Sequence record: MT446392.1
Reading direction: 5' to 3' (one strand)
Length of the DNA stretch: 64,000 nt
From: Escherichia virus TH15
A model generated the notes under the pieces. That model was given only the letters and a program-made list of their open reading frames with translations. It did not search any database and was not told the origin of the DNA. The position numbers and the translations under genes are program-made. This document shows positions 943 to 64,000 of this stretch, piece by piece. How positions within the stretch are numbered: position 1 is the stretch's first letter; each line of letters starts with the position of its first letter.

Positions 943-1016
943 GGCCCTGTAGCTGGACGGTCAAGCGAGCGACTCATAATCGCTGGATGGTGGTTCGATT
1001 CCACCCAGGGCCACCA
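943..1016 (+). tRNA. tRNA, anticodon CAT (Met or lysidine-type Ile)
   Basis: Cloverleaf: acceptor GGCCCTG/CAGGGCC, anticodon stem AGCGA/TCGCT loop CTCATAA, T-arm GGTGG-TTCGATT-CCACC, encoded CCA. Confidence 0.85.
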
Positions 1017-2794: not shown

Positions 2795-3238
2795 ATGAAA
2801 ACTTCAAAACTGGTTAAGTACGTTAAACTGGCATTAAACAACTCTTCTGAAGCTGAAGCGCAATCCGCAGCGCGTATGTTCTTCAAACGTCTGACAGCTG
2901 AAGGTATTTCATTTAACCCGGCAGTATTTGGTATCACTCGTGGCGAAGCTGCTAAACTGGCAACTCTGGCAGGTAAAATTTTTAAAGGTCTGAATGATGG
3001 ACAGGTTAAACCAGAAGTTAAACCTACTCCTAAAGCTGAACCAAAAGCTGAGTGTAAGGCACCTAAACGCTCCGGTATGAGCAACAAAGATTTATGCTAT
3101 GATATGTTCAAAACTGTTAATATGTCTAATGGTGCTGCTCGCAGAGCTGTTATTGATATGATTGTGCGTGAGTTTGGATTCAACAAAGCATCAGTTCAAT
3201 CTTATGCTTCCAACTTCCGCAAAGAATTTGAAATTTAA
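2795..3238 (+). CDS. hypothetical protein (paralog of 2286..2711)
   Basis: ATG at 2795 after GGGATAATAAA; track ATG 2744 lies inside promoter. Confidence 0.6.
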   Translation: MKTSKLVKYVKLALNNSSEAEAQSAARMFFKRLTAEGISFNPAVFGITRGEAAKLATLAGKIFKGLNDGQVKPEVKPTPKAEPKAECKAPKRSGMSNKDLCYDMFKTVNMSNGAARRAVIDMIVREFGFNKASVQSYASNFRKEFEI

Positions 3239-7172: not shown

Positions 7173-8132
7173 ATGATGTTAGTTATTGGCTCTCGCGCAT
7201 TACATAACGCCGGTCTGATTGAAAGTAAGAAAATTGAAAACTCTGATTGGGATTTTATCGCTGACCAGGGTTCCTGGAACAGCTTTAAAACCCAGATGAT
7301 GGGGCAGCATGTTCATGTGGATAACCCAGATGTGCAAGCTTTTAAATGTATGCACAATGGTAAAGAAACTTATTTTGAAGCGTACATCGTCCGCGCACTG
7401 ACAAGTGTTCGTGAGTTGACTGATGAGTTGCAAGAGGAAGATTTTACTTCCAGTTATCGTCTGCTCAAATATGCAAAGGCAAATATTCAGAAAGACCGTC
7501 TATCTGGTTTTTACTGGGCGACCCCTGATATTTGTCTGGCAATTAAATTGTCTCATCGTTACCTGAAGAACAATCCATTCTTCCTGAAGACAATGAGCCA
7601 TATTAATTACCTTCGTAATAAGGGTGTTGTTCTTAATGATGAACTACAAAAAATCATGCAACAACGACAGGCAGAAACACTGTCATATAGTCACCCTAAA
7701 CTAGACGTGGGCAAGAAAACTTTCTTTAATGATACAATCTATACCCTTGACCATGACTCCATCCACGAGGCCGTGGCGCTTGCTGATAAGCCTGCATATA
7801 AGTTCTATATGAAGGATGATTCAGAAGTCATGACCTCACGTGAAAAATTTGAAGCACTCCCTGATGTTATTAAACTGGCAGGGGTTTATGAAGAAGCATG
7901 TGTGCTCGCTCTGGAGCGTTCGCAGGTTCCTAACGAGTTTAGTATCCCGGCCAGTCATAGCTTCCATATGGCTCTGGAAAAAGTCTGCACCTCCATTACT
8001 TCTGGATGGTTTCGTGAGTATGCCTGGGAACATTACCAGGATGTGGTTAATATGTACAACACCCTGGGTCGCGAAGACTATGTTAAACGTTTCAAGGCTA
8101 ACCAGCATTTAATTCGTCCTTTTTCAAAATAA
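7173..8132 (+). CDS. hypothetical protein with possible nucleotidyltransferase-fold motif
   Basis: 319 aa; N-terminal IGSRALH...SDWDF resembles GS...DxD. Confidence 0.6.
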   Translation: MMLVIGSRALHNAGLIESKKIENSDWDFIADQGSWNSFKTQMMGQHVHVDNPDVQAFKCMHNGKETYFEAYIVRALTSVRELTDELQEEDFTSSYRLLKYAKANIQKDRLSGFYWATPDICLAIKLSHRYLKNNPFFLKTMSHINYLRNKGVVLNDELQKIMQQRQAETLSYSHPKLDVGKKTFFNDTIYTLDHDSIHEAVALADKPAYKFYMKDDSEVMTSREKFEALPDVIKLAGVYEEACVLALERSQVPNEFSIPASHSFHMALEKVCTSITSGWFREYAWEHYQDVVNMYNTLGREDYVKRFKANQHLIRPFSK

Positions 8133-10148: not shown

Positions 10149-10904
10149 ATGAATTATCTAAAAATATATGAATCTTTAATAGTATCTGCTATTAAAAGAC
10201 CTCTTACACAAGGATACACCGAAAAACATCATATTTTACCGAAATCGATGGGTGGTAATGATTCTATTGATAATTTAGTTACCCTTACCGCCCGTGAACA
10301 TTTTATTGCACACTTATTATTGGCAAGAATTTTTAAGAATCGCGAAATGTGGTCCGCTGCATATATGATGGCTTCAACAAGTCTAACTAACTCGGATAGA
10401 CATAGATGCTCGTCACATTTATATGAATTATTGCGTAAACAAGCGTCGGTATATAATTCAGGTGAAAATTCTCCAAATTGGGGAATAAAACGTTCTGAAG
10501 AAACACGATTAAAAATGTCAATTTCAAAAATGGGTATCAGGAATCCAATGTACGGTATTCCACAATGTTTGGAACACTCTCATAAAATTAGCCTTGGTGT
10601 TACCGAAGCTTTTAAAAATCCAGAAATGAAAGAACGCCACCGTCAAAGTGTTTCTGGAGAGAATAATGGGTTTTATGGAAAAAAACATTCCGAAAAAAGT
10701 TTGGAAAAACAGCGGAATACAAAACGGAAAGGATTTCCTTGGGACAATTATTTGGAATTGTACCCAATTTGGGTTTCATTAAATTGCCCCAAGCATCCAA
10801 CATTCACAAATGAACTTGTTAAATTGGGATACCCCAAAAAGAAGCTTGTTCGAATAGTGGAAGAGTTTAAAAATGAATATATTCGAAATGCTACGCATAG
10901 ATGA
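10149..10904 (+). CDS. HNH homing endonuclease
   Basis: HNH motif [31 protein letters not shown]; inserted between nudE and e. Confidence 0.8.
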
Positions 10905-27966: not shown

Positions 27967-29043
27967 ATGCAAGATTATGGCCATTGGTCTGTATTTGAAG
28001 AAGTTGACATTAAAAATTATATTGGGTTTGTGTACGTGATTACATTTGAAGACGGTCGCAAATATGTTGGTGCTAAAAAGATTTGGAAACGAATCAAAGC
28101 AGCTCCATGCACATTCAAGCGCGGTCCCAAAAAAGGTTTTGAAGAATCTGATTGGAAAACCTACACATCCTCATCAAATGAGTTAAACTCAATTCTGGAA
28201 AATGGTATAAAGCCAAAAGAAATGATTATCATGGGTTGGTATCCAACTTGGGGTAAAACACTTATGGCTGAAATGGAAATGCAACTAGCTAATGATGTTT
28301 TGCGAGACCCAATGTGGCTCAACAAACAGATTGGTGGTCATTTCAACCCCAACTGTTTTGATGATTTGACTCAAGATGATATTGCTCGATGGATTGAATT
28401 TGACAAAGGCAATGAACATGTTAATTGGCCTGTGATGTATAAAATGGGTCAGAAAACTAAATATGTTAAACCTGACGAAGTTGAAAATTATTTGGCGAAG
28501 GGTTGGCAGTTTGGGCGTTCTCGTTCAGAAAAGCATGGAATAATTACCAATTGTTCTTCGTATAAAATTTGGGATTACCAGACTGATACGGAAGTTGAAG
28601 TCGTTAACCAAACCGAGTTCGCGCAAGAAAATGAAATCTCTGCAAGTCATTTAACCAGACTGTTACAGGGTGATTTAGACCTAATTCAGGAACGTTGGGG
28701 CTTACCTCCGACCATTGCACGACAAAGATACAAATTTGCTTTGGCTGATGATAGTGTAAAATTTATATCGAACGCTGATGTTGAACAATATTTTGGTGTT
28801 GGTCGCGGTGGTTGTGCAAAAATATTAAAAGATGGAAAAATTAAAAAGTTGGTCGTGGAAGACAAAAAATCGCATAAAGCAAAACTTGCAACCATGGATT
28901 TAGTCAAAACAGTTCGACATGAAAAAGTTTCACAAATGGAATTAAACTTTTTCAAAGATATGGTTAATCCGCTATCTCAAACTGAAAGAGATAACTTAAC
29001 AGTATGGCTCGAAAGCTATATACAGTATTTAAAAAACAACTGA
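27967..29043 (+). CDS. GIY-YIG homing endonuclease-like protein
   Basis: N-terminal IGFVYVITFEDGRKYVGAKK GIY-YIG-like motif; 358 aa. Confidence 0.65.
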   Translation: MQDYGHWSVFEEVDIKNYIGFVYVITFEDGRKYVGAKKIWKRIKAAPCTFKRGPKKGFEESDWKTYTSSSNELNSILENGIKPKEMIIMGWYPTWGKTLMAEMEMQLANDVLRDPMWLNKQIGGHFNPNCFDDLTQDDIARWIEFDKGNEHVNWPVMYKMGQKTKYVKPDEVENYLAKGWQFGRSRSEKHGIITNCSSYKIWDYQTDTEVEVVNQTEFAQENEISASHLTRLLQGDLDLIQERWGLPPTIARQRYKFALADDSVKFISNADVEQYFGVGRGGCAKILKDGKIKKLVVEDKKSHKAKLATMDLVKTVRHEKVSQMELNFFKDMVNPLSQTERDNLTVWLESYIQYLKNN

Positions 29044-29181
29044 GGAAATCGCTCAAATGATTAATTTTTATGGCTACATATTTTATGCTTTAGCTGAATC
29101 TATGAATGATATTATCCGCCGCATGGGTGACGAGTATCCTTCTCAATGGCTATTCCTCGTAACCAATACAGGACCTTTCTA

Positions 29182-33690: not shown

Positions 33691-33834
33691 ATGGAATTAT
33701 TTTTAGGATATGTCGTGTTATTCATGGCATTCTACACATTCACACGAACTTGTTGGATAGGATTCTTTTCTACTCCTGACGGGTTCATCTCATTAATTTT
33801 ATTTTGCATTGCGATAACGGCGCTTGGCTTATGA
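33691..33834 (+). CDS. hydrophobic small membrane protein (47 aa)
   Basis: ATG after TGAGGAGAACAT; ATGA overlap with gene 47. Confidence 0.4.
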   Translation: MELFLGYVVLFMAFYTFTRTCWIGFFSTPDGFISLILFCIAITALGL

Positions 33835-34850
33835 AAATTTTAAATTTAGGTGATTGGCACTTAGGTGTCAAAGCTGACGACCCATGGGCTCAAAACATTC
33901 AACGCGATGGTATTTTACAGGCGATTGCATATTCCAAGGCAAATGGGATTAAAGTCTGGATTCAATATGGTGATATTTTTGACGTCCGTAAGGCCGTAAC
34001 GCATAAGACGATGGAATTCAGCCGCGAGATTATGGAACTCCTTCGTGAAGCAGGAATTACTATGCACACGATAGTCGGGAACCATGACATGAATCTGAAG
34101 AATAAGATTCATCCTAATGCTATCACTGAACTCCTGAATAAGTATGACCATGTTAAAATCTACGACAAGCCAACGACTGTTGATTTTGACGGTTGTCAGA
34201 TTGATATGATTCCATGGATGTGTGACGAGAACGCGACTGACATTCATCAACACATCAAAACTTCTGGTGCCGAATATTGCATCGGTCATTGGGAATTAAC
34301 TGGGTTTTATTTCTATAAAGGATTGAAATCTCACGGACTTGAGCCTGATTTCCTTAAGAAGTACAAGCAAGTTTGGTCTGGTCACTTTCACACCATTTCA
34401 GAAGCTGCAAACGTTAAGTACATCGGTACACCATGGACATTAACAGCAGGTGATGAGAATGACCCGCGCGGATTCTGGGAATTTGATACCGAAACCGAAG
34501 AGATGAAATTTATTCCGAATGAAACCACCTGGCATCGGAAGATTTTCTATCCAAACGAAACTATTAACTACGACGACTTCAAAGACTTATCAGTCCGTGT
34601 TATTGTAGAAAAAGTCGATAAAGACCTGACCAAGTTCGAATCTGAATTAGAAAAGCGTGTGCATGAATTGCGTGTTGTCAATAAGGTTGATAACAGTGTT
34701 GATACATCAGATTCCGAAGAAGAGTTAGACATAAAACGCTTAACTGATATGATGGCAGAATATATCGATGCATTACCTGATGCCAATGAGAAAGAATCAA
34801 AAGCTCTCAAAGCATTGGCCAACAAATTATATCTTGAGGTGCAACCGTGA
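33831..34850 (+). CDS. 47: recombination endonuclease subunit gp47 (Mre11-like)
   Basis: MKILNLGDWHLG, GDIFD, GNHD phosphoesterase motifs; matches T4 gp47. Confidence 0.9.
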   Translation: MKILNLGDWHLGVKADDPWAQNIQRDGILQAIAYSKANGIKVWIQYGDIFDVRKAVTHKTMEFSREIMELLREAGITMHTIVGNHDMNLKNKIHPNAITELLNKYDHVKIYDKPTTVDFDGCQIDMIPWMCDENATDIHQHIKTSGAEYCIGHWELTGFYFYKGLKSHGLEPDFLKKYKQVWSGHFHTISEAANVKYIGTPWTLTAGDENDPRGFWEFDTETEEMKFIPNETTWHRKIFYPNETINYDDFKDLSVRVIVEKVDKDLTKFESELEKRVHELRVVNKVDNSVDTSDSEEELDIKRLTDMMAEYIDALPDANEKESKALKALANKLYLEVQP

Positions 34851-35110
34851 GACTTTATGATTTTAATGAAGCGGGACTTGAACATATCCGCGAATGTGAT
34901 GTGGTTGACGATGATAACCAACCGAATACGATTAAGTATTGGTTTGAAGCCATTACTGACCGGGAAACCGGCCAACTTATCAAAGTCTATGTAGTCACTG
35001 ATTGGGCTGTAGAATTTAGCTTTAATGTAATGGAAGATGATACTCCAGAGACATTAATTCATATGGCTGAATCATGTATCAAGGATGCTTATTACGATGA
35101 AGACTTTTAA
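34847..35110 (+). CDS. hypothetical protein
   Basis: 87-aa ORF between 47 and 46. Confidence 0.55.
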   Translation: MRLYDFNEAGLEHIRECDVVDDDNQPNTIKYWFEAITDRETGQLIKVYVVTDWAVEFSFNVMEDDTPETLIHMAESCIKDAYYDEDF

Positions 35111-36779
35111 GCTAAAGAAAGTTATCTATAAAAATATCATGTCAGTTGGAGCGCAAGCAATTACGGTTCAACTTGATAAAGTCCAGAAAACTCTGGTGAC
35201 CGGTAAGAACGGTGCAGGTAAATCAACCTTCCTTGAAGCCGTTACATTTGCATTGTTTGGTAAGCCTTTTCGTGATGTTAAGAAAGGGCAGTTGATTAAC
35301 TCGAGCAACAAAAAAGATATGCTCGTTGAATTGTGGATGGAATATGATGGAAAAGAATACTATATCAAGCGTGGGCAAAAACCCAATGTTTTTGAAATCT
35401 CTTGTGGCGGTGAACGTCTTGATGAATCTGCCAGCAGTAAAGACTTCCAAGCAGAATTTGAACAGCTTATCGGAATGTCATACGCCAGTTTCAAACAGAT
35501 TGTCGTGCTCGGCACAGCTGGATATACCCCTTTCATGGGCCTATCCACTCCTGCAAGAAGAAAACTTGTCGAAGACCTGTTAGAGGTTTCTGTACTGGCG
35601 GATATGGATAAGCTGAACAAATCTCTTATCCGTGAAGTCAACAGTCAAATCCAGGTGATTGATGTTCAGCATGATGGTGTTGTGCAACAGATTAAAATCT
35701 ACCAGGACAACGTTGAAAAGCAGAAAAAATTATCAGGTGATAATCTGCTGCGGTTGCAAACGATGTATGATGATTTGGCTTCAGAAGCTCGTGATATCAA
35801 ATCAACGATTGATGAAGCAACGACAAGATTGACCGAGATTATTTTGGGCGAAGACCCTGAACAGGAACTGACGAAAGTCAAGCAAGAATCGTTCCTGATT
35901 AAATCGAAAATCGATAGCTTCCGTAAAGTAATCGGTTTGTACGAGAAAGGCGGTTGTTGCCAAACGTGTTTGAGTCAATTGTCGCCAGGAGACTCCATAG
36001 TCCCCAGGATTGAGACAAAGATTGAAGAGTATAATCGTGAGTCTGATAGCCATAAAGCTCTCCAGGCCTCCATTCAGGAGCGATTTGATGCGTACGCTGA
36101 AGCAAGACAAAACCAACGTACAATAGCTCAAGAGATTCAAACTAAGAAACAAACATTAATCCAGACTGTGGATAAAGCTAAAAAGGTTAAGACGTTAATT
36201 GAACAAGCTAAGTCTGAATTCATTGACCATGCCGATGATATTAAAACGCTTCAAGACCAGCTTGATAAAATAGTCAAACAGAAATCTGACCTTGTTATGG
36301 AAAAATATCAACGTGGTATCTTAACTGATATGTTGAAAGATTCTGGAATCAAAGGCGCGATTATTAAGAAATATATTCCTATCTTTAATAAGCAAATTAA
36401 TGCTTATCTGAAAGTTATGGAAGCTGATTATAGTTTTACGCTTGATGAAGAATTCAACGAAACAATTAAATCTCGTGGGCGTGAAGACTTTAGCTATGCA
36501 TCATTTAGCCAGGGTGAAAAAGCTCGTATCGATATTGCATTGTTGTTTACATGGCGTGATATTGCTGCGAAAGTATCTGGTGTGCAAATTAGTACGTTGA
36601 TTCTGGATGAGGTCATGGATTCAGCCACTGACGCCGAAGGCATCAAAGCTATCCAGGCAATTATCAATAAATTAGAAGGTCAAAACGTGTTTATCATTAG
36701 CCATCGTGAACACGACCCAGAAGCATATGGGCAGCATCTTCAAATGAAAAAAGTTGGTCGATTTACTGTTCTGGAATGA
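35097..36779 (+). CDS. 46: recombination endonuclease subunit gp46 (Rad50-like ATPase)
   Basis: Walker A GKNGAGKST, coiled coil with CxxC hook, C-terminal signature/Walker B; ATG 35097. Confidence 0.9.
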   Translation: MKTFKLKKVIYKNIMSVGAQAITVQLDKVQKTLVTGKNGAGKSTFLEAVTFALFGKPFRDVKKGQLINSSNKKDMLVELWMEYDGKEYYIKRGQKPNVFEISCGGERLDESASSKDFQAEFEQLIGMSYASFKQIVVLGTAGYTPFMGLSTPARRKLVEDLLEVSVLADMDKLNKSLIREVNSQIQVIDVQHDGVVQQIKIYQDNVEKQKKLSGDNLLRLQTMYDDLASEARDIKSTIDEATTRLTEIILGEDPEQELTKVKQESFLIKSKIDSFRKVIGLYEKGGCCQTCLSQLSPGDSIVPRIETKIEEYNRESDSHKALQASIQERFDAYAEARQNQRTIAQEIQTKKQTLIQTVDKAKKVKTLIEQAKSEFIDHADDIKTLQDQLDKIVKQKSDLVMEKYQRGILTDMLKDSGIKGAIIKKYIPIFNKQINAYLKVMEADYSFTLDEEFNETIKSRGREDFSYASFSQGEKARIDIALLFTWRDIAAKVSGVQISTLILDEVMDSATDAEGIKAIQAIINKLEGQNVFIISHREHDPEAYGQHLQMKKVGRFTVLE

Positions 36780-36802
36780 GCCTCTTATTGAGGCTTCATT
36801 TT
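36779..36802. terminator. bidirectional terminator hairpin between convergent genes
   Basis: Stem GAGCCTC/GAGGCT(T)C with T-rich flank. Confidence 0.5.
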
Positions 36803-37501
36803 GCAGTTATCAAAATGCCAACGTTTCATATTAGCTGGTGTACCGACTACATTACAGTGTGGACACTGAATTTTGGGGTCCACCTTTTTCTTCCGGTTTG
36901 GATTGGATTTGCAGAATTGTCGGTGAGTGGATATAACACACTTTTTACCTTCAATACCACAAAATTCACAAGTTAAAATTTCATGTTTAGCTTGTTTTAA
37001 TCCTACTGAAATTTTTTGCTTTCGTTCTTCTGAAATAGTATGAACAACCTTGTTTGGACCTTTGGAACAGTTATCAAAATGCCAACGATTCATATTGCCA
37101 ACGAGACCGGTTTTTCCACAATGTGGACATTCAACTCTCGGTTTTAATTTGGCAGATTCTGACATTTTCTTTCTGGTTTCATCGGAGAAAATTTTATTTT
37201 GTTGAGCTTCCAAGTTTTTACGACGAAGCCATCCAAATAATTTGTTTTTGCTTCTGTCGGTGTTTGGTGCAGAAACTGTCATCATGCGTGCGGCATAGAC
37301 CAAAGAAGCATTATTTGGATGCATTTTGACCAACAGTTGATGACAAACGAAATGTTCCTCGGGAGTTAAATCAACAAGATTTGAAGCGTCGTCTGCCCCA
37401 CCCATACAACGGGGTATAATGTGATGACTTTCAGAGTATGTGGTTAATTTGCGATTCAATGCTCTGCTAATAAGCTTTTGGTAAATGATGTTATAATTCA
37501 T
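36785..37501 (-). CDS. HNH homing endonuclease with zinc-finger repeats
   Basis: SESHHIIPRCMGGADDASNLVDLTPEEHFVCH plus repeated CPHC...WHFDNC; start at internal ATG with AAGGG SD. Confidence 0.7.
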   Translation of the reverse strand: MNYNIIYQKLISRALNRKLTTYSESHHIIPRCMGGADDASNLVDLTPEEHFVCHQLLVKMHPNNASLVYAARMMTVSAPNTDRSKNKLFGWLRRKNLEAQQNKIFSDETRKKMSESAKLKPRVECPHCGKTGLVGNMNRWHFDNCSKGPNKVVHTISEERKQKISVGLKQAKHEILTCEFCGIEGKKCVISTHRQFCKSNPNRKKKVDPKIQCPHCNVVGTPANMKRWHFDNCKMKPQ

Positions 37502-37541
37502 ATCAGACCCTTGTTTGATACTGCAACGGATAATATTATTT

Positions 37542-37733
37542 ATGAGCAATTTTTTAACCGGGCAGCATTTACTGGCTGTCCCCGAAATTAAACGATATGT
37601 GTTAGTTAATACCTTTTCGAAAGATGAACACCTAGTTACTGAACGTGACTTACAAAACGCTTTCGGTGAAGAATATGTTAAAATAATCGCGAACAGACAC
37701 AAAGCCTGGTTCGCATATGAATACTTTGATTAA
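37542..37733 (+). CDS. hypothetical protein (uncertain)
   Basis: 63-aa ORF in divergent intergenic region; weak SD. Confidence 0.3.
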   Translation: MSNFLTGQHLLAVPEIKRYVLVNTFSKDEHLVTERDLQNAFGEEYVKIIANRHKAWFAYEYFD

Positions 37734-37756: not shown

Positions 37757-38164
37757 ATGAACAACGTAACTGCTAAAGATATCCAAGTTAAAACCATCCG
37801 CACCGACGCTAACCCACATAACCAAAACCGCATCCGTAAATCCTGGGTCCTGGCATGTGATGAAGTATCTGCCACCCGTCTGAAATCACTTCCTCAAGAA
37901 GTTAAATTTATGTTGTATGGTGTTATTGATACTGATGTATCTGATAAGTGGATTGAACTGATGCAACGTCATTACACCGAATCTCTGGCAGCTGGTGCTA
38001 AACTGGTTATCGACCGTGACGGCTCCGAACGTCTAGAAGATGATTACTGTGTTGACTTCGATGACCACCTGGTCCAAGCTGGTTCTATTATTGCTGCGCA
38101 ACTTCCAGAGTATATTGAATCTCTTCCGGAAGCTATCCGCAAACAAATGGCAGTTGTTGCGTGA
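37757..38164 (+). CDS. rpbA: RNA polymerase-binding protein RpbA-like
   Basis: Position between 46 and 45 as in T4, similar size; not sequence-verified. Confidence 0.45.
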   Translation: MNNVTAKDIQVKTIRTDANPHNQNRIRKSWVLACDEVSATRLKSLPQEVKFMLYGVIDTDVSDKWIELMQRHYTESLAAGAKLVIDRDGSERLEDDYCVDFDDHLVQAGSIIAAQLPEYIESLPEAIRKQMAVVA

Positions 38165-39048
38165 ATTTGATTTATAAAATAACCTTTATAACAAGGGAAC
38201 AAAATAACGAATTCCCTTGTTATTATATTGGTTCAAAGGTTGATGCGACATTTAACGGTCAAAATATTCTCGACAAAAATAATAAAATTTATACAGGTTC
38301 TCCGAATTCAAAATACACTAAGCTGTATAATGAATTGATTGATAGAGGTGACTATATTGTTACTATCATTGGAGAAACAAAGCAGGACCCAAGAAAAATA
38401 GAAAATATTTTTCAAATGTCAGTTAAAGCTGTAACCAATGAGAAGTACTTTAATAAAACGTATGCTCACGACCAAAGCCGGTATGATGCTCCTGGATATG
38501 CTCCATACCGAAACTTGAAAACAGGTAAAGTCGTTAAATTGCATCCATCTGAACTTACATCTGATTATGTTGGTGTTCGTAAAGACTGCTCAATTTCGGA
38601 TAAGCACATTCAAGCAATTAAAGACTTTCAAAAAGAATATTGGACTGCCGAAGCTCGACAAGCAAGGTCTATTGAAGTCAAAAATCGTTATAAAGATGCC
38701 GAGTATGCTTTAAAATTCAAAGTTATAATGAATACATCTGAAGTATACGAAAAATATTTAAAATCAATTACTGAATATTGGAATAATTCAGATAATAGAA
38801 TAAAGGCTTCAAAACGAGCAACTGAAAGAAATGCTAGTCCTGAGTTTAAAGAAAAATTTAGGAAATCCAAAGCAAGGGGAACCTGGTTGCAGTATGAAGA
38901 TGAACTTAAAACATTGTGGAATGCTTTAGGTCAACCGGGGTATATTAAGTTTAGAAAACACGCCATTGAACATGGGTTTAATGATGAAAATTATCAGGGT
39001 GCAATCCGGTCCTGGTCAAATTATTATGTTAATAGGAAAATGAAATGA
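38161..39048 (+). CDS. GIY-YIG homing endonuclease-like protein
   Basis: N-terminal IYKITFITREQNNEFPCYYIGS motif; GTG/TTG start; inserted between rpbA and 45. Confidence 0.65.
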   Translation: MNLIYKITFITREQNNEFPCYYIGSKVDATFNGQNILDKNNKIYTGSPNSKYTKLYNELIDRGDYIVTIIGETKQDPRKIENIFQMSVKAVTNEKYFNKTYAHDQSRYDAPGYAPYRNLKTGKVVKLHPSELTSDYVGVRKDCSISDKHIQAIKDFQKEYWTAEARQARSIEVKNRYKDAEYALKFKVIMNTSEVYEKYLKSITEYWNNSDNRIKASKRATERNASPEFKEKFRKSKARGTWLQYEDELKTLWNALGQPGYIKFRKHAIEHGFNDENYQGAIRSWSNYYVNRKMK

Positions 39049-41998: not shown

Positions 41999-43522
41999 AT
42001 GCAAGAATTTTATTTAACTATCGAACAAATCGGTGACAACCTGCTCGAACGGTACATTGACAAGAATGGTCATGAACGTGTTCGTGAAATCCCTTATGCT
42101 CCATGCTTGTTTATGCATGCTCGCGAAGACCAGGCTGCAAAGTATACAGACATCTATAATAAAGGTTGTGTGAAAAAAGAATTCGATTCCATGCGTGATG
42201 CATCCCAGTGGATGAAGCGCATGAACGATATGGGCCTCGAAGCTATGGGTATGGACGATTTCAAACTCGCGTACCTGAGCGACCGTTACCCACATGAAAT
42301 CAAATACGATTCAAGTAAAATCCGTGTGGCTAACTTCGATATCGAGGTGACATCTCCTGATGGGTTCCCTGAGCCGTCTGAAGCACGTCACCCTATCGAT
42401 GCCCTGACGCACTATGATTCGGTAGACGATAAATTCTATGTCTTTGACCTTTTGAGCTCGCCATACGCCACTGTGGAGCAATGGTCTATTGATATTGCTG
42501 CTAAGCTGCAGGAAGATGGCGGTGATGAAGTCCCCGAAGAAATCCTGGAAAAAATTGTTTATATGGCTTTCGATTCAGAAGAAGAAATGCTCCAGCAGTA
42601 TTTGGTATTCTGGAACGAGAAAACTCCGGTTATGTTAACTGGTTGGAACATCGAGAAATTTGATATTCCGTATATCTACAACCGCATTAAAAATGTATTT
42701 GGTGAAGCTACGGCCAAACGTCTGAGCCCACATCGTCGTACAAAAGTTAAAGTCATTAACAACGGCTTTGGTGAAGAACAAGAAATCATTCAGATTCTGG
42801 GTATCTCTGTTCTGGATTATCTGGACCTGTACAAAAAGTTCAGCTTCACAAACCAACCGTCTTACTCGTTGGACTATGTTGCGGAATCTGAGCTGGGTGT
42901 TGGTAAACTTCCGTATGATGGCCCGATTTCTAAATTACGTGAATCCAATCACCAGCGATACATCAGCTATAACATCATTGACGTTTATCGTGTTGTGCAG
43001 ATTGACCGTAAGCGACAGTTCATTAACCTGAGCCAATCGATGGGTTATTATGCAAAGATGCAGATTCAGTCTGTATTCAGCCCAATCAAAACTTGGGATG
43101 CGATTATCTTTAACAGTCTGAAGACTCAAAACAAGGTTATCCCTGAAACCAAATCACATGTTCGTCAATCGTTCCCTGGTGCATTTGTTAAGGAACCGAT
43201 TCCGAACGCATACAAATATGTAATGAGCTGTGACTTAACATCTCTGTATCCGAGCATCATCCGACAGATTAACATCAGTCCAGAAACGATTGCCGGGTCA
43301 TTTGCACCAGCCCAGATGCACGAATACATCGCAGGAACTGCTGACCGTCCATCTGATGCATTTAGTTGTGCGCCAAATGGTATGATGTATTTTAAAGATG
43401 TTGCGGGTATTATTCCGACAGAAGTTGAGAAAGTTTTTAATCAACGAAAAACCGAAAAGAAAAAGATGTTGGCGGCACAACGTAATAGTGAATTGATTAA
43501 AGAAATTTTACATGGAAAATAA
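41999..43522 (+). CDS. 43: DNA polymerase gp43, N-terminal fragment
   Basis: 507 aa: 3'-5' exonuclease region and pol motif A (DLTSLYPSII); ends where the endonuclease gene begins. Confidence 0.9.
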   Translation: MQEFYLTIEQIGDNLLERYIDKNGHERVREIPYAPCLFMHAREDQAAKYTDIYNKGCVKKEFDSMRDASQWMKRMNDMGLEAMGMDDFKLAYLSDRYPHEIKYDSSKIRVANFDIEVTSPDGFPEPSEARHPIDALTHYDSVDDKFYVFDLLSSPYATVEQWSIDIAAKLQEDGGDEVPEEILEKIVYMAFDSEEEMLQQYLVFWNEKTPVMLTGWNIEKFDIPYIYNRIKNVFGEATAKRLSPHRRTKVKVINNGFGEEQEIIQILGISVLDYLDLYKKFSFTNQPSYSLDYVAESELGVGKLPYDGPISKLRESNHQRYISYNIIDVYRVVQIDRKRQFINLSQSMGYYAKMQIQSVFSPIKTWDAIIFNSLKTQNKVIPETKSHVRQSFPGAFVKEPIPNAYKYVMSCDLTSLYPSIIRQINISPETIAGSFAPAQMHEYIAGTADRPSDAFSCAPNGMMYFKDVAGIIPTEVEKVFNQRKTEKKKMLAAQRNSELIKEILHGK

Positions 43523-44210
43523 ATTGCATTTTGTGTATAAAATTACAAATAACATTAATGGTAAAATTTACATCGGTGTTCACAGCACCGATGATATTAA
43601 TGATGGATATTTGGGCAAAGGTACTTTAATTCAGAAAGCTATTAAAAAATATGGGAAATCTAATTTTAAAAAGGAAATTTTGGAATTTTTCGAGGACCGC
43701 ACTTCAGCCTTTGACAAAGAGCGAGAGCTTGTAACCAGAGAATTTGTCAGTTTGACAACAAACTATAATTTAAAAACTGGCGGCGAAGGTGGTGCAATGT
43801 ATGGTAAAACCAATCCGATGTATGGTCGAACATATAGGAAGTCGGAATCAGAGAAGACCCAAATTTCGTTGCGATTTAAAAATGTTCCCAAAACCAACCA
43901 GCACAAACAAAACCTATCCAATTCATTACTCGGTAAACCCAGACCGGACATCGCTGAGAGACAGCGCGGATTGTTACCCTGGAATGTTAATTCTATTCGC
44001 AATAACAAAACCAGACTAAGAAAATTCGCCGACCTGGATATTATTTTCGATTATTGGTCTAGTCATAAATGTGGTGTTAAAGCATTAGCGAATTGGTATC
44101 AACTGGCGACGTATAATGAATTAGCATCCGTTATGCGATTCATTAAAAAGTATGGTGACCCGCGACTGAATGGTGATTGGAAAAAATTTAAGGCTGACTA
44201 TGAATATTGA
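43512..44210 (+). CDS. GIY-YIG homing endonuclease inserted in gene 43
   Basis: N-terminal HFVYKITNNINGKIYIGVHS GIY-YIG motif; overlaps both polymerase ORFs. Confidence 0.75.
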   Translation: MENKLHFVYKITNNINGKIYIGVHSTDDINDGYLGKGTLIQKAIKKYGKSNFKKEILEFFEDRTSAFDKERELVTREFVSLTTNYNLKTGGEGGAMYGKTNPMYGRTYRKSESEKTQISLRFKNVPKTNQHKQNLSNSLLGKPRPDIAERQRGLLPWNVNSIRNNKTRLRKFADLDIIFDYWSSHKCGVKALANWYQLATYNELASVMRFIKKYGDPRLNGDWKKFKADYEY

Positions 44211-45375
44211 TTATAATGCTGATTTTACAGAAGAACAAATCGAATACTTAAAAACTTTGTCTAAAGATGAATTGGAACACCATTTATACAATTCTCAAAT
44301 GGCTGAAGTAGCTGCAAACACCGCGCAGATTAACCGTAAACTGCTTATCAATAGCTGTTATGGTGCTCTGGGCAATATCTGGTTCCGTTACTTTGACCTG
44401 CGAAATGCAACTGCGATTACATCTTTCGGGCAACTTGCATTGCAGTGGATTGAGCGTAAAGTTAACGAATACTTCGATAGTGTTTGTGGTACAAGTGGTG
44501 AGACTTACGTATTCTATGGCGATACTGACTCCATTTATATCCAGTGCGATAACCTGATTAAAAAGGTTGGTGGTGAATCTAAATTCCGCGATACAAACCA
44601 CCTGGTTGACTTCATGGACAAGTTTGCAAAAGACCGTCTGGAACCGGCAATTGATAAAGCTTTCCGTGAACTGGCCGAATACATGAACAATAAACAGCAC
44701 CTTATGTTTATGGACCGTGAAGCGATTGCATGTCCTCCGCTGGGTTCTAAAGGCGTGGGTGGATTCTGGACGGCGAAGAAGCGTTATGCGTTGAACGTGT
44801 ATGATATGGAAGGCACACGATATGCTGTTCCGAAACTGAAAATTATGGGTCTGGAAACTCAAAAGTCGAGCACTCCAAAAGCATGTCAGAAAGCTCTGAA
44901 AGAATGTATCCGTCGCATGCTGCAAGAAGGTGAAGAATCTCTGCAGACATACTTCAAGGAATTCAATAAGGAATTTAATGAGCTTAACTACATGACCATC
45001 GCAGGTGTATCATCGGTTAACAACATCCAGAAATATAATGAGGGCGGTTTCCCTGGATTTAAGTGCCCGGCTCATATCAAAGGTGTGCTTGCATATATGC
45101 GTGCAACTAAAGGGCTGAAGACTGTTCCGCAAATCATGGAAGGGGAAAAGGTGTATGTGCTTCCTCTTAAAGTTGGTAATCCGTTTGGCGAAACCGTGAT
45201 TGCGTGGCCATCAGGGATTGAACTCCCGATTGAAATTCGTGACCAAGTCTTGCAGTGGATGGACTACAACACACTGTTCCAGAAGACTTTTGTTAAGCCA
45301 TTGACAGGGTTCTCTGAAGCAGCTAAGGTTGATTACGAGAAAAAAGCATCTCTTTTTGATATGTTTGATTTTTAA
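44200..45375 (+). CDS. 43: DNA polymerase gp43, C-terminal fragment
   Basis: 391 aa: pol motif B KLLINSCYGALG and motif C YGDTDS; 507+391=898 aa, the length I recall for T4 gp43. Confidence 0.9.
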   Translation: MNIDYNADFTEEQIEYLKTLSKDELEHHLYNSQMAEVAANTAQINRKLLINSCYGALGNIWFRYFDLRNATAITSFGQLALQWIERKVNEYFDSVCGTSGETYVFYGDTDSIYIQCDNLIKKVGGESKFRDTNHLVDFMDKFAKDRLEPAIDKAFRELAEYMNNKQHLMFMDREAIACPPLGSKGVGGFWTAKKRYALNVYDMEGTRYAVPKLKIMGLETQKSSTPKACQKALKECIRRMLQEGEESLQTYFKEFNKEFNELNYMTIAGVSSVNNIQKYNEGGFPGFKCPAHIKGVLAYMRATKGLKTVPQIMEGEKVYVLPLKVGNPFGETVIAWPSGIELPIEIRDQVLQWMDYNTLFQKTFVKPLTGFSEAAKVDYEKKASLFDMFDF

Positions 45376-63714: not shown

Positions 63715-63720
63715 GGCCTT

Positions 63721-63747
63721 ATTGCTTTAAAATATGTGACTTATAAT
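63721..63747 (+). promoter_or_regulatory. T4 middle-type promoter (MotA box)
   Basis: ATTGCTTTA, 12-nt spacer, -10 TATAAT. Confidence 0.45.
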
Positions 63748-63753
63748 ACCTCC

Positions 63754-64000
63754 ATGAACTTAAAACAATTTATTGAAGAAAATCTTTTAACTAAAAATCC
63801 GAATAGACTAAACGGAAATTTATTTAAAAATGATTTAGAATTTGCAAAGAAATTTTGGGAAAAACATCCCGAGGAAGCAAATGCCTTTAGAGCAGAAGCA
63901 CTGGAATGTCAGGGAGGTAAAAGAGAACAACATCCGTATAACGAGGTCTGTTATCGTATTTTACATGATATAAAAGGGAAAGTCCTGTGTAAGTGTGGCA
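63754..64000 (+). CDS. hypothetical protein, 3'-truncated by window end
   Basis: Frame open to window end; ATG only 6 nt after the -10, so start uncertain. Confidence 0.35.
   Translation, partial: MNLKQFIEENLLTKNPNRLNGNLFKNDLEFAKKFWEKHPEEANAFRAEALECQGGKREQHPYNEVCYRILHDIKGKVLCKCG

What the first reader, a model, noticed from the sequence alone, without database searches (positions are those of the whole stretch)
36785..37501. High density of homing-endonuclease-like genes, including one antisense HNH gene
Five endonuclease-like genes occur in 64 kb: HNH at 10149..10904 and 36785..37501 (minus strand, paralogous N-termini MNY...HHI(L/I)P...MGG) and GIY-YIG at 27967..29043, 38161..39048 and 43512..44210. 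Three sit inside the conserved replication block (between 46 and rpbA, between rpbA and 45, inside gene 43). The antisense HNH gene shares a bidirectional terminator with gene 46.
Basis: partly seen in the sequence, partly recalled or inferred. Interest (0 to 1): 0.5.

Follow-up and report, generated by a model that had tools for sequence, protein, structure and literature searches.

The report
Antisense Mob-type homing endonuclease gene
The minus-strand gene between phage genes 46 and 45.2 is an intact relative of the T4 MobE homing endonuclease, and the flanking DNA shows it was copied in from a related phage; this is ordinary biology for T4-like phages.

Summary
The window is a T4-like coliphage segment of the Gaprivervirus type, about 96% identical to VR26. 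The ORF at 36785..37501 (minus strand, 238 aa) is real. Its N-terminal HNH domain is 44% identical to T4 MobE, and it carries three C-terminal CCHC zinc fingers.

- **Distribution:** the gene is absent from VR26, VR7, SP18 and T4. It sits at the same site and in the same antisense orientation in phages of four named genera plus an unclassified Klebsiella phage.
- **Promoter:** the sequenced orthologues outside this genus have an exact T4 late-promoter box (TATAAATA) upstream. The window has CATAAATA.
- **Acquisition:** the window is VR26/VR7-like up to 36479, matches gene-carrying phages such as P479 from 36584 to 37574, and is VR26-like again from 37703. This is a homing-type co-conversion tract.
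- **Terminator claim:** the "bidirectional terminator" is a conserved hairpin with a T-run on the plus strand only.
- **Other four genes:** all are nuclease-like, though 38161..39048 is supported only by PHROGs and a predicted fold.
- **Side findings:** gene 43 is split at the same site as in Aeromonas phage 25. The 27967..29043 gene occupies the endonuclease VII (gp49) slot.

Verdict: a new member of a known kind, of modest interest.

The parts
36785..37501 (-). Free-standing Mob-class HNH homing endonuclease gene, 238 aa: HNH domain (about aa 1-100), helical linker, and three CCHC zinc fingers (about aa 122-145, 175-197, 210-233).
   Evidence: ORF and sequence. PHROG 655 at 2.7e-68. 44% identity to T4 MobE, E 6e-31. 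Invariant E24 H26 H27 N41 H50 H54 and C213 C216 H229 C233 in 48 homologues. AF2 model pLDDT 90.7. Foldseek matches HNH domains and zinc-finger arrays. dN/dS 0.08-0.24 among orthologues.
37537..37544 (-). Late-promoter-like box CATAAATA (7 of 8 matches to TATAAATA), 35 nt upstream of the HNH start codon. Its CAT is the reverse complement of the 45.2 start codon.
   Evidence: Sequence. An exact TATAAATA sits at the equivalent place in IME281, F2, Roth04 and UFV01. The first position (-13) is the most tolerated deviation in T4 late promoters (PMC2988020). Function is inferred.
37502..37536 (-). Conserved leader of the HNH gene (TTATCnGTyGCwGTrTCAAAyArGG), with a Shine-Dalgarno-like AAGGG at 37512-37508.
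   Evidence: Alignment by eye of six orthologous upstream regions. The predicted fold is no more stable than shuffled sequence (z -0.86). Any role beyond ribosome binding is unknown.
36771..36806 (.). Imperfect palindrome/hairpin at the convergent ends of gene 46 and the HNH gene. The core is GAGCCTC-TTATT-GAGGCTT, and the HNH stop codon lies in the loop. A T-run follows on the plus strand only.
   Evidence: RNA folds of -15.3 kcal/mol (plus) and -12.0 kcal/mol (minus), z -3.5 and -3.6. Conserved in IME281, F2 and UFV01. Not called by the terminator scan.
36584..37574 (.). Minimal gene-conversion (co-conversion) tract carrying the endonuclease gene. The left breakpoint lies in 36480-36583 and the right breakpoint in 37575-37702.
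   Evidence: Of 178 informative sites in gene 46, the window is VR26/VR7-type up to 36479 and P479/P8-type at all 51 sites from 36584 to 36779. It is donor-type at 37545-37574 and backbone-type from 37703. The 100-bp identity profile agrees.
35085..36779 (+). Gene 46 (SbcC/Rad50-like recombination nuclease subunit). Its last roughly 200 bp belong to the imported haplotype and are the most likely place for the endonuclease target.
   Evidence: Alleles lacking the endonuclease gene are only about 65% identical at 36600-36700.
37542..37733 (+). Gene 45.2. Codons 2-4 differ from alleles that lack the endonuclease gene, and its upstream Shine-Dalgarno site is displaced by the insertion.
   Evidence: Alignment with VR26, sequence, annotated orthologues.
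10149..10904 (+). Second Mob-class HNH gene (HNH plus NUMOD3), inserted between nudE and e (lysozyme).
   Evidence: Pfam and PHROGs. 38% identity to VR26 MobD. Absent from VR26. Only one record in the phage collection carries it at this site.
27967..29043 (+). 358-aa protein with a SegE-type GIY-YIG domain, occupying the slot of gene 49 (endonuclease VII). A gp49 remnant lies at 29013-29057.
   Evidence: PF19835 at 3e-33 and PHROG 7363 at 1e-174. Replacement of gp49. The same slot is filled this way in PSD2001, Bp7, phiR1-RT and Melville.
38161..39048 (+). 295-aa ORF between rpbA and gene 45, with a probable divergent GIY-YIG N-terminal domain. It starts at a GTG that overlaps the rpbA stop codon.
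43512..44210 (+). GIY-YIG homing endonuclease gene that splits gene 43. Its start overlaps the 43A stop codon and its stop overlaps the 43B start codon.
   Evidence: Pfam GIY-YIG and SegE_GIY-YIG. Junction sequences. Three different reading frames. No group I intron found. 46% identity to the N-terminal domain of the Aeromonas phage 25 gene-43 endonuclease.
41999..43522 (+). Gene 43A, the N-terminal cistron of the split DNA polymerase. It matches VR26 gp43 residues 1-504.
44200..45375 (+). Gene 43B, the C-terminal cistron of the split DNA polymerase. It aligns from RB69 polymerase residue 515, corresponding to VR26 gp43 residues about 514/516-904.
63715..64000 (+). N-terminal 95 codons of a homologue of the VR26 gp006 'endonuclease VII'-motif protein, cut off by the end of the window. 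It sits between 39.1 and 39.
   Evidence: tblastn at 99% identity, E 3e-60.

Best explanation
The ORF at 36785..37501 is a free-standing homing endonuclease gene of the T4 Mob class. It has an N-terminal HNH nuclease domain homologous to MobE, joined by a helical linker to three CCHC zinc fingers that most likely give DNA-site specificity.

It lies in the 46/45.2 intergenic space, convergent with gene 46.

Inferred mechanism:
1. The gene is transcribed late in infection from its own gp55-type late promoter (CATAAATA here, TATAAATA in the four orthologues examined from other genera). It is therefore not expressed from the early and middle transcripts that run the other way.
2. In a mixed infection with a relative that lacks the gene, the enzyme nicks or cuts that relative's DNA. 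The likely site is in the last roughly 200 bp of gene 46 or in the 46/45.2 junction.
3. The T4 recombination-repair machinery repairs the break using the gene-carrying genome as template. This copies the endonuclease gene together with flanking markers.
4. The gene-carrying genome is protected by sequence differences in that flank.

Shown directly: the window's genome carries exactly such a footprint. A tract of about 1.0-1.2 kb of P479-like sequence, centred on the endonuclease gene, sits inside a VR26/VR7-like backbone.

Inferred only: enzymatic activity, the target site and promoter use.
For: - **Identity:** PHROG 655 at 2.7e-68. 44% identity to the experimentally studied T4 MobE, E 6e-31. 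The HNH motif aligns with McrA and Cas8-HNH domains. E24, H26, H27, N41, H50 and H54 are invariant in 48 homologues down to 38% identity. The AF2 model (pLDDT 90.7) shows a beta-beta-alpha nuclease core plus three beta-beta-alpha fingers.
- **Mobility:** VR26, VR7, SP18 and T4 lack the gene and have a spacer of about 35-55 nt instead. P479, P8, MN01, DK-13 and PSD2001 carry it at 96.5-98% identity.
- **Mosaic footprint:** the SNP-level pattern has sharp breakpoints at 36480-36583 and 37575-37702.
- **Maintenance:** dN/dS is 0.08-0.24 among orthologues. Site and orientation are the same in Gaprivervirus, Dhakavirus, Tequatrovirus, Karamvirus and a Klebsiella phage. 285 phage records hold a full-length relative.
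- **Expression:** an exact TATAAATA lies roughly 35-50 nt upstream of the start codon in four other genera. T4 late promoters tolerate changes at position -13, and late transcripts can have either polarity (PMC2988020).
- **Mechanistic precedent:** MobE makes an HNH-dependent nick in the neighbouring gene of the recipient phage, and repair yields high-frequency inheritance with flanking polymorphisms (PMC2790892). Nuclease genes commonly mark boundaries of genetic exchange in phages (PMC10448857).
Against: - No biochemical or genetic test of cleavage was possible.
- Pfam HNH is below its gathering score (16.8 against 21.4 bits), and PDB sequence and Foldseek matches are weak (E 0.086 and 0.026).
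- The window's promoter box has one mismatch. An 8-mer of this kind is not rare in AT-rich DNA: the exact motif occurs 4 times in the window against about 5 expected by chance.
- No positions separate all gene-carrying alleles from all gene-lacking alleles across genera, so the target site could not be located.
- T4-like phages recombine very frequently, so a mosaic tract alone does not prove that the endonuclease started the exchange.
Confidence: 0.78

Rival explanations
1. The gene is an intact-looking but inactive passenger, a decaying homing endonuclease. Ordinary homologous recombination, or another nuclease acting in trans, carries it along, and the mosaic tract reflects general T4-type recombination.
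For: T4 holds defunct endonucleases that are mobilised in trans by a neighbour, as I-TevIII is by MobE (PMC2790892). T4 segD, also antisense, has no identifiable promoter and is thought to be barely expressed (PMC2988022). The window's promoter box is imperfect. MN01 carries a patch of the gene-lacking sequence type inside the gene-carrying haplotype of gene 46, which shows that ordinary recombination acts here.
Against: The reading frame is intact in every orthologue examined. Catalytic and zinc-binding residues are invariant. dN/dS is 0.08-0.24 across genera. The late-promoter box and leader are conserved. The conversion tract is centred on the gene with breakpoints within about 100-300 bp on either side.
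Confidence: 0.1
2. The nuclease has been co-opted for a function that benefits the phage. Candidates are exclusion of competing relatives (marker exclusion), stimulation of recombination or amplification near the replication genes, or antisense control of the 46/45.2 transcripts. In this reading its long retention is not purely selfish.
For: The site and orientation are identical across four named genera plus an unclassified Klebsiella phage, under purifying selection. A recent report shows that the T-even endonuclease SegB helps immune evasion by amplifying anti-defence loci (PMC13096335, abstract). The late antisense transcript would be complementary to read-through RNA from gene 46 (inference).
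Against: The gene is patchily present among close relatives: it is absent from VR26, VR7, SP18, VR25 and T4. That is the expected pattern for a selfish element and shows it is dispensable. No evidence of any such function was obtained here.
Confidence: 0.1
3. The minus-strand ORF is a chance or mis-called ORF, and the region is simply a long variable spacer.
For: It lies antisense to all neighbouring genes. The list of mechanical ORFs contains many antisense ORFs.
Against: It has 3960 database homologues, strong family matches and a high-confidence fold. It shows codon-level purifying selection and is annotated as a CDS in several genomes.
Confidence: 0.01

Closest known systems
T4 MobE, a free-standing HNH homing endonuclease between nrdA and nrdB (Wilson & Edgell 2009, PMC2790892)
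   Same: The N-terminal HNH domain is homologous: 44% identity over 116 aa, E 6e-31. Both are free-standing intergenic genes next to a conserved DNA-metabolism gene. The progeny and mosaic pattern fits break repair with co-conversion of flanks.
   Different: MobE has no promoter and is co-transcribed with nrdA in the sense orientation. The gene here is antisense and has its own late-promoter-like box. T4 MobE is 141 aa with no zinc fingers, whereas this protein has three. The insertion site and presumed target gene also differ (46/45.2 rather than nrdB).
T4 segD, the only antisense homing endonuclease gene in T4 (Edgell et al. 2010, PMC2988022)
   Same: A free-standing endonuclease gene oriented opposite to the essential genes that flank it, with hairpin or terminator structures nearby.
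   Different: segD is a GIY-YIG gene with no identifiable promoter of its own and is thought to be barely expressed. This gene is HNH, and its orthologues carry a conserved consensus late promoter.
I-TevIII and other HNH endonucleases with zinc fingers; Mob-like genes of vibriophage ICP1 (Barth et al. 2023, PMC10448857)
   Same: The architecture is an N-terminal HNH domain plus a C-terminal zinc-finger DNA-binding module.
   Different: I-TevIII is encoded in an intron. The finger here is a repeated CPHC...RWHFDNC (CCHC) unit. The same unit also occurs on GIY-YIG endonucleases, namely the Aeromonas phage 25 gene-43 endonuclease and P0125, which indicates module shuffling.
Split DNA polymerase 43A/43B of Aeromonas phages 25 and 44RR, with a seg-like endonuclease (Petrov et al. 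2010, as summarised in PMC2988022)
   Same: Gene 43 in the window is split at the same point. Phage 25 43A ends at VR26-equivalent residue about 511 and 43B starts at about 515. The window's 43A ends at about 504 and 43B starts at about 514. In both, a GIY-YIG gene lies between the two cistrons, with 46% identity in the N-terminal domain.
   Different: The window has no group I intron in 43B. It has no untranslated spacer, since stop and start codons overlap on both sides. The host range is Escherichia-type rather than Aeromonas. No record in the phage collection has this insertion. Two metagenomic contigs do.

Membership tests
Mob-class free-standing HNH homing endonucleases (T4 MobA-E) | HNH (beta-beta-alpha-metal) catalytic motif with a conserved His general base, Asn, and metal-binding His | tested here: met
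   SHHIIPRCMGGADDASNLVDLTPEEHFVCH aligns with the McrA and Cas8-HNH motifs. H26, H27, N41, H50 and H54 are invariant in 48 homologues. The model shows strands 24-27 and 42-45 followed by helix 47-60. Pfam HNH alone is below its cut-off.
Mob-class free-standing HNH homing endonucleases (T4 MobA-E) | Sequence homology to a characterised member | tested here: met
   T4 MobE: 44% identity, E 6e-31. VR26 MobD: 48% identity over 75 aa, E 4e-20. PHROG 655 at 2.7e-68.
Mob-class free-standing HNH homing endonucleases (T4 MobA-E) | C-terminal DNA-binding module (a zinc finger in the Mob class) | tested here: met
   Three CCHC units are present. C213, C216, H229 and C233 are invariant. The predicted beta-beta-alpha fingers match zinc-finger arrays weakly. 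The class definition is taken from PMC10448857. DNA binding itself was not tested.
Mob-class free-standing HNH homing endonucleases (T4 MobA-E) | Free-standing intergenic location, present in some close relatives and absent from others | tested here: met
   A 765-nt cassette replaces a spacer of about 35 nt between 46 and 45.2. The gene is present in P479, P8, MN01, DK-13 and PSD2001, and absent from VR26, VR7, SP18 and T4.
Mob-class free-standing HNH homing endonucleases (T4 MobA-E) | Unidirectional gene conversion with co-conversion of flanking markers | tested here: met
   There is a comparative footprint only: a donor-type tract from 36584 to 37574 inside a VR26/VR7-type backbone. Directionality and dependence on the enzyme could not be tested.
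Mob-class free-standing HNH homing endonucleases (T4 MobA-E) | Site-specific nicking or cleavage of the allele that lacks the gene, and HNH-dependent preferential inheritance | not testable with these tools
   This needs in vitro cleavage or mixed-infection experiments. No diagnostic target positions were found by comparison.
Genes driven by a T4-type late promoter (gp55/gp33/gp45-dependent) | A TATAAATA box a short distance upstream of the gene, on the coding strand | tested here: inconclusive
   The window has CATAAATA at 37544-37537, a 7 of 8 match. The exact box is present in four orthologues from other genera. Deviations at the first position occur in T4. The motif alone is not enriched in the window. 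No transcript data are available.
Bidirectional intrinsic terminator | A G+C-rich hairpin followed by a U-tract on both transcripts | tested here: not met
   The hairpin is stable on both strands. However, the minus-strand transcript continues with AUUCCAG and has no U-tract. The consensus scan reported no terminator here on either strand.
GIY-YIG homing endonucleases (for ORF 38161..39048) | GIY-YIG fold with the catalytic Tyr, Tyr, Arg, Glu and Asn residues | tested here: inconclusive
Split PolB (43A/43B) with an intervening seg-like gene, as in Aeromonas phage 25 | Two cistrons split at the fingers tip, a GIY-YIG gene between them, and (in phage 25) a group I intron in 43B | tested here: met
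   The split site is the same and the endonuclease N-domain is homologous. The intron feature is absent here: there is no Rfam hit and the 43B ORF is continuous. Reassembly of an active polymerase could not be tested.

The most novel reading that the evidence does not exclude
One of the five listed "homing-endonuclease-like" genes, the 358-aa SegE-type GIY-YIG protein at 27967..29043, may not be a selfish element. It may be a non-orthologous replacement of the T4 core enzyme endonuclease VII (gp49), which resolves branched DNA for packaging.

- It sits exactly in the gp49 slot, leaving only a 15-codon gp49 remnant.
- It fills the same slot in PSD2001, Bp7, phiR1-RT and Melville, which belong to four genera.
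- The complete PSD2001 genome has no intact gp49 and no other gene with the endonuclease VII motif.

If correct, a GIY-YIG nuclease would serve as the junction-resolving and packaging nuclease in several genera of T4-like phages.
Probability: 0.35. Interest if true: 0.6.

Novelty: new member of a known kind. Interest (0 to 1): 0.3.

Why it matters
- **A ready test system for homing.** The case is unusually clean. Backbone-type phages (VR26, VR7) and donor-type phages (P479, P8) are both isolated, and the conversion tract is mapped to within about 100 bp on each side. Homing, target-site immunity and late antisense expression of a Mob-class enzyme could therefore be tested directly.
- **Relevance to comparative genomics.** It illustrates how these elements scramble the conserved replication module of T-even-type phages that are used in therapy and in phylogenetics. 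Gene 46 and 45.2 alleles, a split polymerase and a replaced resolvase gene all affect phylogenies and gene calls.
- **No new principle.** The finding itself adds none. High endonuclease density, intergenic insertion next to essential genes, one antisense member and co-conversion are all established for T4.

Tried and rejected
- **Weak or empty searches on the focal protein.** Pfam gave a sub-threshold HNH hit. A PDB sequence search gave only McrA at E 0.086. Full-length Foldseek gave a best E of 0.026, because the model is an elongated multi-domain protein; the HNH part matched Cas8-HNH with probability 0.98. NCBIfam gave only faint IscB and HlpB hits.
- **Terminator scan.** It did not call the 46/HNH hairpin.
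- **Target-site search.** I looked for positions that separate all gene-carrying from all gene-lacking gene-46 alleles across genera. None were useful, so the target site stays undefined.
- **Leader structure.** The HNH leader folds no better than shuffled sequence.
- **MotA-type middle promoter.** Considered and rejected by eye, because the TGCT element is too close to the -10-like hexamer.
- **Intron in gene 43.** Rejected: no Rfam group I intron, and the insert is a compact ORF with overlapping stop and start codons.
- **Intein in gene 43.** Rejected: the three ORFs are in three different frames.
- **Sequence-level GIY-YIG support for ORF 38161..39048.** Pfam on all six family members, a profile search of PDB sequences, and BLASTP against the SegE-like protein all found nothing.
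- **Extra endonuclease genes.** Ten ORFs, most in segments diverged from or absent in VR26, showed no nuclease domains.
- **Literature.** I found no paper describing an endonuclease gene at the 46/45.2 site. Petrov et al. 2010 (J Mol Biol) could not be retrieved, so I used its summary in PMC2988022 together with the phage 25 record itself.
Full report
**Context.** The window is a segment of a T4-like coliphage. A 12-kb stretch around the finding is 96% identical to Escherichia phage vB_EcoM_VR26 and 93-95% identical to other members of the genus Gaprivervirus, but no record matches it over its full length. ORF listing and the annotation of relatives give this gene order: 47 (33804-34850), 46.2, 46 (35085-36779), a minus-strand ORF (36785-37501), 45.2 (37542-37733), rpbA (to 38164), a 295-aa ORF (38161-39048), 45, 44, 62, regA, a truncated gene 43 (41999-43522), a 232-aa ORF (43512-44210) and the rest of gene 43 (44200-45375).

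**Observation check.**
- The minus-strand ORF is real. It runs from ATG 37501 to TAA 36785-36787 and encodes 238 aa. The closest homologues and annotated orthologues are about the same length.
- The other HNH gene (10149-10904) is on the plus strand and has HNH plus NUMOD3.
- The two N-termini are paralogous: 37% identity over 146 aa, E 2e-22.
- Pfam supports GIY-YIG for 27967-29043 (SegE type, 3e-33) and for 43512-44210.
- The focal HNH itself is below Pfam's threshold (16.8 against 21.4 bits), and 38161-39048 has no Pfam hit at all.
- PHROGs assigns all five ORFs to families annotated as homing endonucleases. The focal protein matches PHROG 655 at 2.7e-68.
- Five ORFs cover about 6.5% of the window. 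In T4, 15 such genes make up 11% of coding potential (PMC2988022). VR26 carries five differently placed nuclease-annotated genes (at least three of them homing-endonuclease-like) over the region fetched for comparison. The density is typical of this group.

**Anatomy of the focal protein.**
- Residues 1-116 are 44% identical to T4 MobE (E 6e-31), the experimentally studied free-standing HNH endonuclease. Residues 1-75 are 48% identical to VR26 MobD.
- The motif SHHIIPRCMGGADDASNLVDLTPEEHFVCH aligns with the HNH motifs of McrA and Cas8-HNH.
- In an alignment of 48 homologues down to 38% identity, E24, H26, H27, P30, C32, G35, N41, H50 and H54 are invariant. So are C213, C216, H229 and C233 of the last zinc finger.
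- An AlphaFold model built on that alignment has mean pLDDT 90.7. It shows a beta-beta-alpha nuclease core, two linker helices and three beta-beta-alpha fingers built on the repeated unit CPHC...RWHFDNC.
- Foldseek matches are weak for the whole chain but point to zinc-finger arrays and HNH domains.
- This is the architecture described for the Mob class: N-terminal HNH plus C-terminal zinc finger (PMC10448857).

**Distribution, orientation and signals.**
- VR26, VR7, SP18 and T4 lack the gene and have a spacer of about 35-55 nt between 46 and 45.2.
- P479, P8, MN01, DK-13 and PSD2001 carry it at 96.5-98% nucleotide identity.
- Orthologues at 45-74% protein identity lie at the same place, always convergent with gene 46. 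They occur in Dhakavirus (IME281, Bp7), Tequatrovirus (F2, RB51), Karamvirus (UFV01) and Klebsiella phages.
- Some records already call it a "Mob-like HNH homing endonuclease".
- Pairwise dN/dS among orthologues is 0.08-0.24.
- On the coding strand, roughly 35-50 nt upstream of the start codon, IME281, F2, Roth04 and UFV01 all have an exact T4 late-promoter box, TATAAATA. The window and P479 have CATAAATA (37544-37537), whose CAT is the complement of the 45.2 start codon.
- In T4, the first position of the box is the most frequent site of deviation, and late transcripts can have either polarity (PMC2988020).
- The exact 8-mer is not enriched in the window: 4 occurrences against about 5 expected, none on the minus strand. 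The evidence therefore rests on conservation across genera, not on the motif itself.
- The leader between the box and the start codon is also conserved but has no significant fold.

**The hairpin.** At the 3' end, an imperfect palindrome (36771-36806, core GAGCCTC-TTATT-GAGGCTT) contains the gene-46 stop codon and holds the HNH stop codon in its loop. It is conserved in other genera and folds stably on both strands (-15.3 and -12.0 kcal/mol, z about -3.5). Only the plus-strand transcript has a U-run after it, and the consensus scan did not report a terminator. "Shared hairpin" is correct. "Bidirectional terminator" is not established.

**Evidence of homing.**
- A 100-bp identity profile shows three phases. 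The window is 95-100% identical to VR26/VR7 and only 70-98% (mostly 80-93%) identical to P479/P8/MN01 through gene 46 from about 35100 to 36500. It then becomes 93-100% (mostly 97-100%) identical to the gene-carrying phages from 36500 to about 37750. From about 37800 it returns to the VR26 type.
- At single-site resolution there are 178 sites in gene 46 where VR26 and VR7 agree with each other and differ from P479 and P8. The window carries the VR26/VR7 base at nearly all sites up to 36479. It carries the P479/P8 base at all 51 sites from 36584 to 36779.
- On the other side it is donor-type at 37545-37574 and backbone-type from 37703.
- The genome therefore contains a tract of about 1.0-1.2 kb of donor sequence centred on the 765-nt cassette. 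This is the co-conversion footprint expected from break-initiated homing.
- Alleles that lack the gene are only about 65% identical to carrier alleles at 36600-36700. This region encodes the Walker B, D-loop and H-loop part of the SbcC/Rad50-like gp46. It is the most likely location of the target and of the protective differences, but no diagnostic positions shared across genera were found.

**Most likely mechanism.**
- *Shown:* the gene is an intact, selectively maintained MobE homologue. It is present in some close relatives and absent from others, and it arrived in this genome together with its flanks.
- *Inferred from T4 knowledge:* it is expressed late from its own promoter on the antisense strand. 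The enzyme nicks or cuts the gene-lacking allele in or near the 3' end of gene 46. T4 recombination-dependent repair then copies the gene and adjacent markers. This matches what was shown for MobE, which nicks nrdB of T2 in an HNH-dependent manner (PMC2790892).
- *Rivals:* an inactive passenger moved by ordinary recombination, a co-opted function, or a spurious ORF. The last is excluded. The first two cannot be excluded without experiments, but constraint on the catalytic residues argues against inactivity, and patchy distribution among close relatives argues against an essential role.

**The other listed genes.**
- *10149-10904.* This is a MobD-like HNH/NUMOD3 gene inserted between nudE and e. 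It is absent from VR26, and only one record in the phage collection has it at this site.
- *43512-44210.* This GIY-YIG gene splits gene 43. 43A matches VR26 gp43 residues 1-504, and 43B aligns from RB69 residue 515. By established knowledge of RB69 polymerase (fingers domain, residues 469-572), this is the tip of the fingers domain.
  - The three ORFs are in different frames, stop and start codons overlap on both sides, and Rfam finds no intron.
  - No record in the phage collection has this insertion, and the nearest phage proteins are 35-44% identical.
  - Two metagenomic contigs have the same architecture. One is 99% identical in DNA. The other is only 71% identical, with 65% identity in the endonuclease, so the split state is maintained in diverged lineages.
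  - The split is at the same position as in Aeromonas phage 25, whose intervening endonuclease is 46% identical in its N-terminal domain. It is therefore a new member of the arrangement described by Petrov et al. (summarised in PMC2988022), here without the intron.
- *27967-29043.* This is not a plain insertion. It replaces gene 49 (endonuclease VII) at its conserved locus, leaving 15 codons of gp49 at 29013-29057.
  - The same protein fills this slot in PSD2001, Bp7, phiR1-RT and Melville.
  - In the complete PSD2001 genome, tblastn finds only a 38-residue gp49 remnant and no other gene with the endonuclease VII motif.
  - Substitution of gp49 by other nucleases has been suggested for RB16 and Aeromonas phage 65 (PMC2993671). 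A similar substitution by a GIY-YIG nuclease is therefore plausible here but untested.
- *63715 to the window end.* A sixth nuclease-like ORF, homologous to VR26 gp006 with an endonuclease VII-type motif, begins here and is cut off.

**Comparison with known systems and verdict.** The focal gene works like MobE, and by every feature testable here it is a member of the Mob class. It differs from MobE in orientation, in having its own late promoter, in carrying three zinc fingers and in its target locus. Its antisense placement has a T4 precedent in segD, which however lacks a recognisable promoter. Near-identical copies are already annotated as homing endonucleases in public genomes, and the general phenomena are well established. 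These are high endonuclease density, placement beside essential genes, and nuclease genes at recombination boundaries (PMC10448857). I rate it a new member of a known kind, with modest interest (0.3). Its value is as a clean, experimentally tractable example. The more unusual items are the split polymerase and the gene in the gp49 slot, and both lie outside the focal coordinates.

Noticed in passing
window 27967-29043 (gp49 remnant at 29013-29057); L006, L007, L018, L019; PSD2001 L020-L023: The SegE-type GIY-YIG gene sits in the conserved slot of gene 49 (endonuclease VII) and replaces it. The same arrangement occurs in phages of four genera. The complete PSD2001 genome has no intact gp49 or other gene with the endonuclease VII motif. 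This may be a non-orthologous replacement of the resolvase.
   Followed up: partly
window 41999-45375; L016, L017; L025 1088-4957: Gene 43 (DNA polymerase) is split into 43A and 43B at the fingers tip by a GIY-YIG gene, with overlapping stop and start codons on both sides. No record in the phage collection has this. Two metagenomic contigs do (99% and 71% DNA identity). The split site is the same as in Aeromonas phage 25.
   Followed up: yes
window 63715-64000: This is the N-terminal part of a homologue of the VR26 gp006 protein (252 aa, C-terminal endonuclease VII-type motif), lying between 39.1 and 39 and cut off by the window end. It may be a sixth endonuclease gene.
   Followed up: partly
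window junctions near 8114-8126, 20490 and 54107; L004 11133-11804; L005 13699-14463 and 26094-26741: VR26 carries segF, mobD and a 215-aa 'restriction endonuclease' at sites that are empty in the window. Occupancy of endonuclease sites therefore differs site by site between genomes that are 96% identical.
   Followed up: partly
window 36785-37130 (fingers); P0125; L025 2613-3416: The zinc-finger unit CPHC...RWHFDNC of the focal HNH protein also ends two GIY-YIG proteins: the Aeromonas phage 25 gene-43 endonuclease and P0125, a relative of ORF 38161-39048. DNA-binding modules appear to be shuffled between nuclease families.
   Followed up: partly
window 37515-37545: In gene-carrying genomes the late-promoter box abuts the 45.2 start codon and displaces the GAGG ribosome-binding site seen in VR26. 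Expression of 45.2 may therefore be altered by the insertion.
   Followed up: no
L012 about 2960-3000 (MN01 gene 46 3' end): MN01 has a short patch of the gene-lacking sequence type (AGTCACCGAGACCATGACCC) inside the gene-carrying haplotype of gene 46. This is either a secondary recombination event or a hint about which positions do not matter for immunity.
   Followed up: no
T4 record MT984581 139733-140419 (hit H219): The focal 238-aa protein aligns over 99% of its length, as a single tblastn piece, to T4 DNA spanning mobE and the adjacent nrdB.1. T4 MobE (141 aa) may therefore be a truncated or split version of a longer finger-bearing ancestor.
   Followed up: no
window 943-1013 and 1151-1223: There are two tRNA genes (Rfam tRNA, 62.6 and 68.4 bits) in a segment that differs from VR26, which has a single tRNA-Met there.
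   Followed up: no
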